A stretch of 64,000 bases of DNA, from assembly GCF_003790525.1 (NCBI RefSeq), contig NZ_CP033635.1; one strand, given 5' to 3'. How positions within the stretch are numbered: the first letter of the stretch is position 1; each line of letters opens with the position of its first letter. A model generated the notes under the pieces. That model made no database searches, was not told the origin of the DNA, and worked only from the letters and a program-made list of their open reading frames with translations. Source of the DNA: Escherichia coli (lineage in GTDB: Bacteria > Pseudomonadota > Gammaproteobacteria > Enterobacterales > Enterobacteriaceae). The translations under genes were made by a program, and so were the position numbers. Below are positions 12,874-14,671 of this stretch, piece after piece.

Positions 12874-13327
12874 TCGAGCAGCATAATAACGTTACGGGAT
12901 TAATACCGCAAATCTCAGAGAAAGCCCGACAAACCCAACTAAGCGCACCTCTTATCTGGTCCGCCAAAGAGCTTAATGTCCGGTGCAGATTTTCGATGTA
13001 AAAAACCGCCTGGCTGCGGGTTTAAGTTGTGTGGCGTAGGAACCACTCTTACCATGATATGCATACTTTTACGATCGTAAAGTGTTTGTTCATACCCTGC
13101 ATGCTGCATGATTCACCCCACATACAATCTCTGGATTGTTGCGACGCTTGGCAAGATGTAATTAAAGATTATGCATTCTTCTATGCACGTATTTTTCTTC
13201 AAAAGCAATGTCTTTATTAAGGTTATATAAATAACTCATAACCCCAAATAATTAAATATATTTAGCACTTCTAATAAAAAAGATTGATCTTAATTTTTTG
13301 AGTGAAAGATAGCCATCTATTTATTAG

Positions 13328-14523
13328 GGAAGGTGCGAACAAGTTCCTGATATGAGATCATCATATTCATCCGGAGCGCATCCCAAAGGGACATCATGAG
13401 CCATCAACTCACCTTCGCCGATAGTGAATTCAGCACTAAGCGCCGTCAGACCCGAAAAGAGATTTTCCTCTCCCGCATGGAGCAGATTCTGCCATGGCAG
13501 AATATGACCGCTGTCATCGAGCCGTTTTATCCCAAGGCGGGCAATGGCCGACGGCCCTATCCGCTGGAGACCATGCTGCGTATTCACTGCATGCAGCATT
13601 GGTACAACCTGAGCGACGGTGCCATGGAAGATGCCCTGTACGAAATCGCCTCCATGCGCCTGTTTGCCCGATTATCCCTGGATAGCGCCCTGCCGGATCG
13701 CACCACTATCATGAATTTCCGCCACCTGCTCGAGCAGCATCAACTGGCCCGTCAATTGTTCAAGACCATCAATCGCTGGCTGGCCGAAGCAGGCGTCATG
13801 ATGACCCAAGGCACTTTGGTGGATGCCACCATCATTGAGGCACCCAGCTCTACCAAGAACAAAGAGCAGCAACGCGATCCGGAGATGCATCAGACCAAGA
13901 AAGGCAATCAGTGGCACTTTGGCATGAAGGCCCACATTGGTGTCGATGCCAAGAGTGGCCTGACCCACAGCCTGGTCACCACCGCGGCCAACGAGCATGA
14001 CCTCAATCAGCTGGGTAATCTGCTTCATGGAGAGGAGCAATTTGTCTCAGCCGATGCCGGCTACCAAGGAGCGCCACAGCGCGAGGAGCTGGCCGAGGTG
14101 GATGTGGACTGGCTGATCGCCGAGCGTCCCGGCAAGGTAAAAACCTTGAAGCAGAATCCGCGCAAGAACAAAACGGCCATCAACATCGAATACATGAAAG
14201 CCAGCATCCGTGCCAGGGTGGAGCACCCGTTTCGCATCATCAAGCGGCAGTTCGGCTTCGTGAAAGCCAGATACAAGGGGCTGCTGAAAAACGATAACCA
14301 ACTGGCGATGTTATTCACCCTGGCCAACCTGTTTCGGGTGGACCAAATGATACGTCAGTGGGAGAGATCTCAGTAAAAACCGGAAATAACGCCAGAAATG
14401 GTGGAAAAAATAGCCTAAATAGGCTGATTCGATGTGTTTGCGGGAAAAAAATCGGCCCAGATCCGCGAAATTTTAATCAGCGAGTCAGCTTGGGAAGAAA
14501 TGACCTGCTTATTCGCACCTTCC
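13328..14523 (+). mobile_element. Complete IS5 insertion sequence with 4-bp TTAG target-site duplication
   Basis: Terminal inverted repeats GGAAGGTGCGAACAAG (13328..) and CTTATTCGCACCTTCC (..14523); length about 1196 bp; flanked by TTAG at 13324..13327 and 14524..14527. Confidence 0.95.
13396..14376 (+). CDS. insH: IS5 transposase InsH
   Basis: 326 aa [79 protein letters not shown]..., matches IS5 transposase. Confidence 0.95.
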
Positions 14524-14671
14524 TTAGCTTGCATGACTTCTTATTTTGTGATAGTGGTCACATATAAAGAATCGGACTCCTTAATTTTCCTTGTATACAT
14601 TATACACAGAAATTAAATTTTCATCCTGATAGCATTTTGTCGTCCAATTAACTCCCACCAGAGGATAAAAA

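What the first reader, a model, noticed from the sequence alone, without database searches (positions are those of the whole stretch)
13324..14671. Intact IS5 with TTAG duplication 148 bp upstream of the prophage porin gene and inside the phage late transcription unit
The IS5 is complete (both inverted repeats, intact transposase, 4-bp TTAG target duplication), so the insertion is recent. It sits in the AT-rich region just upstream of the NmpC-family porin gene, with the transposase in the same orientation as the porin. IS5 insertions upstream of genes are known to activate silent genes, so this porin may be IS5-activated. It also lies between Q (and the expected late promoter) and the tRNA/lysis/head/tail genes on the other strand, so it may be polar on late expression and render the prophage lysis-defective. 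In K-12 the DLP12 nmpC locus is also hit by IS5 at a different position, suggesting a recurrent target.
Basis: partly seen in the sequence, partly recalled or inferred. Interest (0 to 1): 0.6.

Follow-up and report, generated by a model that had tools for sequence, protein, structure and literature searches.

The report
ISKpn26 insertion upstream of prophage porin
A recently inserted, intact IS5-type mobile element (ISKpn26) lies between two back-to-back promoters of an E. coli lambda-like prophage, upstream of both the phage late promoter and an OmpF-like porin gene, so it breaks no gene or late transcript and is an ordinary insertion whose only plausible effect is on porin regulation.

Summary
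The physical observation holds. A complete 1196-bp IS5-group element occupies window 13328-14523. It has 16-bp inverted repeats, an intact 326-aa transposase and a TTAG target duplication. It ends 148 bp before the porin ATG and points the same way as the porin.

Two corrections are needed. First, the element is ISKpn26. It is 99.9% identical to annotated ISKpn26 copies and only 91.4% identical to K-12 IS5. Second, it is not inside the late transcription unit. The only copy of the 933W/DLP12-type late promoter pR' in the window is at 13081-13054 on the minus strand. That is on the lysis side of the IS, about 246 bp away and reading away from it. Q (75% identical to Q933W) acts in trans. The same Q–porin(opposite strand)–pR'–lysis order occurs in DLP12 and in a viable phage. 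Polarity on late genes is therefore not expected.

The porin keeps a perfect CRP site (14547-14562) and its best predicted core promoter. The IS orientation and its position (about -103) match known IS5 activations, but no expression data exist, and the features needed for the glpFK-type and fucAO-type mechanisms are altered or absent. Relatives carry the empty site, so the insertion is strain-specific and recent. Overall the finding is ordinary.

The parts
13324..13327 (.). Left copy of the TTAG target-site duplication
   Evidence: Empty-site alleles carry a single TTAG.
13328..14523 (+). ISKpn26, an IS5-family/IS5-group element, 1196 bp and complete
   Evidence: 99.9% identical to E. coli copies annotated as ISKpn26, with one mismatch at IS position 59. 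91.4% identical to K-12 IS5B. Only one copy is present in the window.
13328..13343 (+). Left terminal inverted repeat (transposase-promoter end)
13396..14376 (+). Transposase, 326 aa and intact
   Evidence: NCBIfam NF033581 (IS5 family transposase) scores 367 bits against a cut-off of 140. Identical to WP_000019448.1. 320 of 327 translated positions (stop codon included) are identical to K-12 InsH2.
14347..14523 (+). 3'-terminal ~177 bp, the counterpart of the IS5 'IB' activating segment; it abuts the porin promoter
   Evidence: This is the most diverged part relative to IS5, 70-87% identity per 100 columns. The A-tracts are largely kept in position. The IHF core TCAA is changed to TCGA. The IB definition comes from PMC2753651.
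14508..14523 (-). Right terminal inverted repeat
14524..14527 (.). Right copy of the TTAG target-site duplication
13092..13327 (.). AT-rich (30.5% GC) part of the divergent intergenic region, now displaced 1.2 kb away from the porin promoter
   Evidence: It contains no CRP-like or OmpR-like sites.
13041..13081 (-). Late promoter pR' with its qut-type core: TTTACG (-35, 13081-13076), 16-nt spacer, TATCAT (-10, 13059-13054), plus the conserved initial transcribed sequence
   Evidence: Found by the promoter scan. Homologous to the annotated pR' of 933W-like phages and to DLP12. It is the only match in the window. The same motif occurs once in each of 19 related loci, always on the lysis side of the porin.
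13000..13022 (-). Hairpin plus T-run after pR', the counterpart of the first terminator after pR' in 933W-like phages
   Evidence: The stem is only 4 bp, so terminator strength is uncertain.
12883..12911 (-). Putative tRNA promoter (TTGCGG, 17-nt spacer, TATTAT), homologous to the 'pT' annotated in phage 06-3462
   Evidence: Read directly. The annotation is and the alignment. Inference.
12720..12873 (-). Two phage tRNA genes with anticodons CAT and TCT, of the ileZ/argN type
   Evidence: Homologous to the tRNAs of Stx phages.
14547..14562 (.). Perfect CRP consensus site TGTGA-N6-TCACA, centred at 14554.5, 31 bp from the IS end
   Evidence: Both half-sites are conserved in all relatives, including GF60, whose porin allele is diverged.
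14591..14619 (+). Best predicted porin core promoter: TTGTAT, 17-nt spacer, TAAATT. The predicted transcription start is about 14626, which puts CRP at -71.5 and the IS end at about -103.
   Evidence: Position-weight-matrix scan, 11.5 bits against at most 7.4 for any other candidate, with the same top hit in the occupied and empty alleles. Prediction only.
14672..15778 (+). OmpF-like 16-strand general porin, 368 aa and intact; a lysogenic-conversion gene
   Evidence: NCBIfam best hit is OmpF at 542 bits, below the 583-bit cut-off. The top solved-structure hits are OmpF. 59% amino-acid identity to K-12 NmpC. The exact protein occurs in many NCBI assemblies.
15922..15938 (+). Intrinsic terminator of the porin gene
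   Evidence: 7-bp stem, 6 of them G-C pairs, followed by a T-run.
15957..16379 (-). Antiterminator Q, 140 aa, of the Q933W/QuuD type
   Evidence: 75% identity to the Q of a 933W-like phage, diverging after about residue 125. PHROG 79 matches residues 1-125.
10383..12304 (-). Lysis cassette, apparently intact: holin 12032-12304, endolysin 10841-11374, Rz spanin 10383-10859
   Evidence: PHROGs matches. Same gene order as in relatives.

Best explanation
An intact ISKpn26 (IS5 group) transposed recently into a TTAG (YTAR) target in the AT-rich, roughly 380-bp divergent control region of a lambdoid prophage integrated next to yecE in E. coli.

The region holds two promoters pointing away from each other. 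The phage late promoter pR' reads leftward into the tRNAs, the holin-endolysin-Rz cassette and the head genes. A CRP-type promoter reads rightward into an OmpF-like porin gene. The IS lies upstream of both: about 246 bp from the pR' -35 hexamer and 23 bp from the CRP site.

It therefore interrupts no gene and no transcription unit. Q is made from its own gene on the far side of the porin and acts in trans at pR'. Late transcription, lysis and morphogenesis are predicted to be unaffected.

The only plausible functional consequence is on the porin. The DNA upstream of about -103 has been replaced by the 3' end of the IS. The native CRP site and core promoter remain, and no plus-strand terminator lies between the transposase gene and the porin. 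The effect is therefore most likely nil to a modest increase or partial loss of CRP dependence, not silencing.

Shown: the anatomy, the homologies, the empty sites and the intactness of the parts. Inferred: activity of pR' and of the porin promoter, and any change in expression.
For: - IS anatomy and target duplication.
- Identity as ISKpn26.
- Empty sites in 11 related loci. No occupied allele among 5426 complete E. coli genomes.
- pR': the scan finds TTTACG-16-TATCAT at 13081-13054 on the minus strand. It is homologous to the annotated pR' and first terminator of 933W-like phages and to the nmpC-essD spacer of DLP12. It is the single match in the window. A conserved motif occurs once per locus in 19 loci, always between the porin 5' end and the lysis genes, including the viable phage PhiR11_1.
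- Literature: PR' is constitutive and closely associated with Q in Stx phages (PMC7547250). The DLP12 lysis-operon regulatory region has been cloned from upstream of essD (PMC7918800).
- Q is 75% identical to Q933W.
- The lysis and head genes look intact.
- Porin promoter: a perfect CRP site and the top-scoring core promoter both lie downstream of the IS and are conserved in relatives.
- No plus-strand terminator-like site lies between 14376 and 14672.
Against: - pR' and the porin promoter are assigned by homology and consensus only; no transcript data exist.
- The hairpin after pR' is weak, with a 4-bp stem, so the antitermination logic may differ in detail from 933W.
- The last 15 residues of Q are replaced and its activity is untested.
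- Only part of the prophage is inside the window, so other defects cannot be excluded.
- An effect of the IS on local supercoiling or on H-NS spreading toward pR' cannot be ruled out.
Confidence: 0.72

Rival explanations
1. IS5-type cis-activation of the porin, the first half of the reader's idea. The IS relieves H-NS silencing (bgl or flhDC type), supplies a bent, IHF-bound 3' end that stimulates the promoter and makes it less CRP-dependent (glpFK type), or adds read-through from the transposase promoter. The lysogen then makes more of the OmpF-like porin. This rival is compatible with the best explanation, because it concerns only the size of the effect on the porin.
For: - The orientation has the ins5A promoter distal and the 3' end proximal, as in glpFK, fucAO and flhDC (PMC2753651; PMC11894529).
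- The IS end at about -103 from the predicted start falls within the published range: -99.5 and -169.5 at flhDC, -126.5 at glpFK.
- The insertion lies just upstream of a CRP site in AT-rich DNA.
- The A-tracts of the 3' segment are largely conserved.
- No plus-strand terminator lies between the transposase gene and the porin.
Against: - Nothing shows that the porin is silent without the IS. From my own knowledge, the related Lc porin of phage PA-2 is expressed in lysogens.
- The 3' segment is the most diverged part relative to IS5, and the IHF core that was mutated experimentally (TCAA) reads TCGA here.
- No CRP-like site lies upstream of the IS to form a fucAO-type fusion promoter, and the IS5 transposase promoter alone is reported to be inactive (PMC11894529).
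- The allele is seen only once, so there is no sign of recurrent selection.
Confidence: 0.3
2. A polar insertion inside the late operon, the second half of the reader's idea. Late transcription starts next to Q, must cross the porin and the IS, and is terminated there, leaving the prophage defective for lysis.
For: The IS does lie physically between Q and the lysis and head genes. The IS carries a minus-strand terminator-like hairpin at 14425-14412.
Against: - The only pR'/qut-type sequence in the window lies downstream of the IS on the late-gene strand.
- The 178-bp spacer between Q and the porin contains the porin terminator and no pR' homology.
- The same Q–porin–pR'–lysis order is found in DLP12, in 2465 of 5426 E. 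coli genomes and in a viable phage.
- From established knowledge, Q-modified RNA polymerase resists terminators, so polarity would be weak even if transcripts did cross the IS.
Confidence: 0.05
3. Down-regulation of the porin. The IS separates the core promoter from upstream AT-rich DNA that normally helps expression, for example through UP-like or curved DNA or an unrecognised activator site.
For: The 236 bp displaced upstream region is at least 99% conserved even where the porin coding sequence has diverged to 79% amino-acid identity. That suggests constraint on the region, although it also contains the surroundings of pR'.
Against: The CRP site and the best core promoter are retained. No OmpR-like or CRP-like sites are found in the displaced DNA. 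Published IS5 insertions at comparable positions activate rather than repress.
Confidence: 0.12

Closest known systems
ISKpn26 (IS5 family, IS5 group)
   Same: 1196 bp and 99.9% identical to annotated copies, with an identical transposase, 16-bp inverted repeats and a 4-bp YTAR duplication.
   Different: Nothing apart from one base in the 5' leader and a new insertion site.
IS5 of E. coli K-12, including IS5B in nmpC of prophage DLP12
   Same: Same IS group, with about 98% transposase identity. Both have a TTAG duplication. Both sit in the prophage porin cassette between Q and pR', with the transposase co-oriented with the porin.
   Different: Nucleotide identity is only 91.4%. The K-12 copy interrupts the 3' end of the coding sequence and inactivates nmpC. 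Here the coding sequence is intact and the IS is 148 bp upstream. The two porins are only 59% identical and their promoters are unrelated.
IS5 activation of glpFK (Zhang and Saier 2009, PMC2753651)
   Same: The 3' end of the IS is proximal to a CRP-dependent promoter, inserted roughly 100-130 bp upstream of the transcription start. A-tracts are present.
   Different: A different IS. The IHF core site is altered. Helical phasing and expression are unknown.
IS5 fusion promoter at fucAO (PMC11894529)
   Same: Same orientation, and read-through across the IS is possible because no plus-strand terminator is present.
   Different: That mechanism needs a genomic CRP site centred at -61.5 upstream of the IS. 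None is present here.
IS1/IS5 activation of bgl and flhDC by relief of H-NS or repressor binding
   Same: Insertion into AT-rich DNA just upstream of a CRP site. The distance is comparable to the flhDC position at -99.5.
   Different: No evidence that this porin is silenced. H-NS binding was not testable, and only weak motif matches were found.
Q-pR'-tR' late control module of 933W and Sakai Stx phages
   Same: Q is 75% identical. The pR' core and first hairpin are homologous, and ileZ/argN-type tRNAs lie downstream.
   Different: In Stx phages pR' abuts or overlaps the end of Q. Here a porin cassette (plus the IS) of about 2.9 kb separates them. About 250 bp of the StxS/tR' region is absent, since the BLAST match spans 372 bp here against 624 bp in the Stx phages.

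Membership tests
IS5 proper (same element as K-12 IS5) | Near-identity to the IS5 reference. By the usual ISfinder practice, recalled from my own knowledge, this means at least about 95% nucleotide identity. | tested here: not met
   91.4% over 1198 aligned columns against IS5B of MG1655. The last 100 bp are only about 70% identical.
ISKpn26 | Near-identity to annotated ISKpn26 copies over the full length | tested here: met
   100% coverage and 99.9% identity to many copies annotated 'IS5-like element ISKpn26 family transposase'. One mismatch and an identical protein.
IS5 family insertion sequence | IS5-family DDE transposase scoring above the curated cut-off | tested here: met
   NF033581 scores 367 bits against a cut-off of 140, covering profile positions 1-285 of 285.
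IS5 family insertion sequence | Terminal inverted repeats and a 4-bp YTAR target duplication, with a matching empty site | tested here: met
   16-bp inverted repeats matching at 15 of 16 positions; TTAG on both sides; a single TTAG in 11 empty alleles.
Insertion inside the lambdoid late (Q-dependent) transcription unit | Position downstream of pR'/qut on the late-gene strand | tested here: not met
   The pR' homologue is at 13081-13054 on the minus strand. The IS begins at 13328, so it is upstream of pR'.
glpFK-type IS5 activation | 3' (IB) end of the IS proximal to the target promoter | tested here: met
   The transposase is on the plus strand and the IS 3' end lies at 14523, next to the porin promoter. 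The orientation rule is in PMC2753651.
glpFK-type IS5 activation | IHF site (TCAA-N4-TT) and phased A-tracts in the last 177 bp | tested here: inconclusive
   The A-tracts are mostly conserved, but the IHF core reads TCGA instead of TCAA. Binding was not testable.
glpFK-type IS5 activation | Raised, CRP-independent expression of the downstream gene | not testable with these tools
   No expression data are available.
fucAO-type fusion promoter | Genomic CRP site just upstream of the IS 5' end | tested here: not met
   No TGTGA-N6-TCACA match with two or fewer mismatches in 13092-13327.
NmpC/Lc prophage porin | General porin of the OmpF/OmpC/PhoE family | tested here: met
   Full-length matches to OmpF and OmpC profiles and structures.
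NmpC/Lc prophage porin | Located between Q and pR' of a lambdoid prophage, on the opposite strand | tested here: met
   Same slot as nmpC in DLP12 and as the porin of phage PhiR11_1.
NmpC/Lc prophage porin | Close sequence relationship to NmpC | tested here: inconclusive
   59% amino-acid identity to K-12 NmpC. The best profile hit is OmpF, below its cut-off. The promoter regions are not homologous.

The most novel reading that the evidence does not exclude
A natural-isolate example of IS5-type 'mobile enhancer' action by ISKpn26. The insertion would switch on, or free from catabolite control, a prophage OmpF-like porin, perhaps under selection such as compensation for lost or altered OmpF/OmpC. 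This would mirror the laboratory nmpC(p+) story in reverse and extend IS5-type activation to ISKpn26 and to a lysogenic-conversion gene.
Probability: 0.12. Interest if true: 0.4.

Novelty: already known. Interest (0 to 1): 0.15.

Why it matters
The finding matters little beyond correct annotation.

- In porin-carrying lambdoid prophages the late promoter is not next to Q. It lies on the far side of the porin cassette. Insertions in the porin-pR' spacer should therefore not be scored as breaking the late operon.
- If the porin were shown to be up-regulated, this would be a natural case of IS5-group promoter activation affecting outer-membrane permeability and phage or antibiotic susceptibility. 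Nothing here demonstrates that.

Tried and rejected
- **A second pR' next to Q.** I searched the window for the conserved pR' core with up to three mismatches and found only the copy at 13041-13081. The Q-porin spacer and the porin region have no near match in the phage collection.
- **A fucAO-type fusion promoter.** No CRP-like site lies in the 236 bp upstream of the IS.
- **OmpR control of the porin.** No tandem OmpR-like sites were found.
- **H-NS high-affinity motif scan.** Only weak matches with two mismatches on both flanks, which is uninformative.
- **Known RNA families around the site.** Only the two tRNAs were found.
- **Promoter homology with DLP12 nmpC.** None beyond the signal-peptide codons, so regulation of nmpC or Lc cannot simply be transferred to this porin.
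- **ISKpn26 copy of strain CFS3273 as a reference.** Rejected, because its 3' end aligns poorly with the window IS from about position 1046 onward; I did not establish why.
- **Literature search for ISKpn26-driven promoter activation.** Nothing relevant was returned.
- **Occupied allele elsewhere.** None in 5426 complete E. coli genomes or in the 10 NCBI contigs shown and checked, out of 23 read. I did not scan metagenomes for the junction.
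Full report
**1. What is in the sequence**

Window 13328-14523 is a complete 1196-bp insertion sequence. Its ends are 16-bp inverted repeats, GGAAGGTGCGAACAAG and GGAAGGTGCGAATAAG, and these are the only two matches in the 64-kb window. It is flanked by direct TTAG repeats at 13324-13327 and 14524-14527. The 326-aa ORF at 13396-14376 (+) matches the NCBIfam IS5-family transposase model over the model's whole length, at 367 bits against a cut-off of 140.

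The right end of the IS lies 148 nt before the ATG (14672) of a 368-aa porin gene on the same strand. The flanking DNA is 30.5% GC on the left and 32.4% GC on the right, against 50.1% for the window as a whole.

**2. Which IS it is**

Against 5426 complete E. coli genomes, the element is 99.9% identical over its full length to many copies that RefSeq annotates as 'IS5-like element ISKpn26 family transposase'. Compared with one such copy, from strain WEM25, the single difference is at IS position 59 in the leader, and the transposase is identical.

Against the IS5B copy of K-12 MG1655, nucleotide identity is only 91.4%, although the transposases are about 98% identical. Divergence is concentrated at both ends and falls to about 70% identity in the last 100 bp. 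The element is therefore ISKpn26, a sister of IS5, and not IS5 itself.

**3. A real and recent transposition**

The same prophage region without the IS exists in E. coli strains Ch1, LH50-c, GF60 and TUM1886 and in ten NCBI draft assemblies that encode the identical porin. In all eleven loci that I checked, the site reads TCTATTTATTAG followed by C/TTTGCATG, with a single TTAG. One of these loci differs from the window at only 1 of 598 intergenic positions.

No complete genome carries the occupied allele.

**4. The surrounding genes**

The window comes from E. coli. Its right-hand 25 kb (flhA through araF) is 100% identical to several E. coli chromosomes. The left half of the window is a lambdoid prophage integrated next to yecE.

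On the minus strand, from right to left, lie:
- replication genes;
- Q (15957-16379);
- after a gap, two tRNA genes (12798-12873 and 12720-12796);
- holin, endolysin and Rz spanin;
- terminase, portal, protease, decoration protein, capsid and tail genes, all as open frames of the expected length.

The porin gene (14672-15778) is on the opposite strand and has its own terminator at 15922-15938.

**5. Where the late promoter is**

The evidence places it elsewhere:
- The promoter scan finds a minus-strand TTTACG-16-TATCAT at 13081-13054, followed by a hairpin and T-run at 13022-13000.
- A sensitive search against phage genomes matches window 12720-13091 to Stx2 phages. The match runs from their argN and ileZ tRNAs up to the 3' end of Q, across features annotated as the late promoter pR' and its terminator.
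- Read side by side, 933W-type TTTACGATCGTAAAAATCTGCATATCATGATAAGAGTGGTT and the window's TTTACGATCGTAAAAGTATGCATATCATGGTAAGAGTGGTT are plainly the same element.
- The window's Q is 75% identical to the Q of these phages over about 125 residues and diverges only in the last 15. In 933W-like phages Q overlaps pR'.
- The pR' core occurs only once in the window.
- A degenerate form of the motif occurs exactly once in each of 19 fetched loci. It abuts Q in Stx phages. In every porin-carrying locus it lies between the porin 5' end and the lysis genes. These include DLP12 of K-12 (between nmpC and essD) and phage PhiR11_1, which was propagated on MG1655.
- Published work places a constitutive PR' closely associated with Q in Stx phages (PMC7547250). 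The regulatory region of the DLP12 lysis operon has been cloned from upstream of essD (PMC7918800).

The porin cassette therefore sits between Q and pR', and Q must act in trans. The ISKpn26 lies about 246 bp upstream of the pR' -35 hexamer, on the side from which late transcripts never come.

The IS is thus not in the late transcription unit, and polarity on the tRNA, lysis, head or tail genes is not expected. The tRNAs also appear to have their own promoter, a homologue of the annotated pT.

There are caveats. All of this rests on homology. The hairpin after pR' has only a 4-bp stem. About 250 bp of the 933W StxS/tR' region is missing here.

**6. The porin and its promoter**

The protein is a full-length general porin. 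It is closest to OmpF by profile and by solved structures and is 59% identical to K-12 NmpC. It occupies the same prophage slot as nmpC, but the two upstream regions are unrelated.

Twenty-three bases to the right of the IS lies a perfect CRP consensus site, TGTGATAGTGGTCACA (14547-14562). A perfect site is expected about 6 x 10^-4 times by chance in 600 bp, by my own estimate.

The best sigma-70-like candidate is TTGTAT-17-TAAATT at 14591-14619. It scores far above the alternatives and is the top candidate in both the occupied and the reconstructed empty allele. It would place CRP at -71.5, a class I position, and the IS end at about -103.

The whole upstream region is at least 99% conserved in strain GF60 even though the porin coding sequence there is only 79% identical at the protein level. 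Both CRP half-sites are retained. The porin's own control elements therefore survive the insertion.

**7. Could the IS activate the porin?**

The geometry resembles published IS5 activations. In glpFK, fucAO and flhDC the IS is oriented with its transposase promoter distal and its 3' end proximal to the activated promoter. The published positions are -126.5 at glpFK and -99.5 or -169.5 at flhDC (PMC2753651; PMC11894529).

The specific requirements are not clearly met:
- The 177-bp 3' 'IB' segment needed at glpFK is the least conserved part of ISKpn26. The IHF core that was mutated experimentally (TCAA) reads TCGA here, although most A-tracts are kept.
- The fucAO mechanism needs a CRP site in the genomic DNA just upstream of the IS, and none is present.
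- Relief of H-NS silencing is conceivable, because AT-rich DNA lies on both sides, but it cannot be tested here.
- Nothing indicates that the porin is silent in IS-free lysogens.
- The allele is unique, so there is no signature of repeated selection.

I put the chance of a real up-regulation at about 0.3, of down-regulation at about 0.1, and regard no meaningful effect as the most likely outcome.

**8. Is this a recurrent target?**

K-12 does carry IS5B in nmpC, 58 bp from the 3' end of the gene, co-oriented with it and also flanked by TTAG. The nmpC-type Q-porin-pR' cassette is present in 2465 of 5426 complete genomes. In an evenly spaced sample of those records, the non-K-12 interruptions were by IS1A (twice) and ISVsa5 (once).

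The roughly 380-bp spacer here contains ten YTAR sites. This looks like ordinary IS traffic into AT-rich prophage DNA rather than an IS5-specific hot spot.

**9. Verdict**

The element should be renamed ISKpn26. The 'inside the late operon, polar, lysis-defective' reading is not supported. The 'activated porin' reading remains an untested possibility. The IS, the porin cassette and its position between Q and pR', and the late control module all belong to known kinds. Interest is low.

Noticed in passing
window 57037-57815 (flhD-uspC intergenic region): The classical IS1/IS5 activation target upstream of flhDC lies in the same window and carries no IS. This 25-kb stretch is 100% identical, in a single piece, to several E. 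coli chromosomes, and the IS5-type inverted repeat occurs only at the porin site.
   Followed up: partly
window ~42915-45144 (between flhB and cheZ): A dgt-like dGTP triphosphohydrolase gene and an overlapping hypothetical gene sit between flhB and cheZ, according to the annotation of the identical stretch in strain XDL. From my own knowledge, this pair is not at that position in K-12. It may be a small anti-phage islet.
   Followed up: no
window 14672-15778, compared with L020 (strain GF60): The porin coding sequence is mosaic across strains. The GF60 allele is only 79% identical at the protein level, while the 598-bp upstream region is at least 99% identical. This suggests recombination or diversifying selection on the porin with a conserved promoter. 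In strain LH50-c the porin is a pseudogene with an internal stop.
   Followed up: partly
window 15957-16001 (3' end of Q): The last ~15 codons of Q have no homology to Q933W or to PHROG 79. This marks the junction where the porin cassette separates Q from pR', which in 933W-like phages overlaps the end of Q.
   Followed up: partly
window 13000-13022 (minus strand): The hairpin following pR' has only a 4-bp stem, compared with a 6-7-bp stem in 933W-like phages. About 250 bp of the StxS/tR' region of Stx phages is missing, so termination after pR' may be leaky in this prophage lineage.
   Followed up: partly
window 12720-12873: tRNA naming conflict. ARAGORN calls the genes Arg(TCT) and Met(CAT). 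RefSeq annotation of the same genes in relatives says tRNA-Lys and tRNA-Ile. The CAT gene is the ileZ-type tRNA of Stx phages.
   Followed up: no
L018 (E. coli CFS3273, 3505-4700): Another ISKpn26-annotated element abuts a truncated Q (quuD) gene and a truncated dinI-like gene in a decayed relative of this prophage near dusA, which looks like an IS-associated deletion. From about position 1046 onward that copy aligns poorly with the window IS; I did not establish why.
   Followed up: partly
window 10010-10351 (+) and 11498-11875 (+): A Bor-like outer-membrane lipoprotein gene, and a 125-aa ORF of an unknown PHROG family, lie on the strand opposite to the lysis cassette. These are further candidate lysogenic-conversion genes in the late region.
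   Followed up: no
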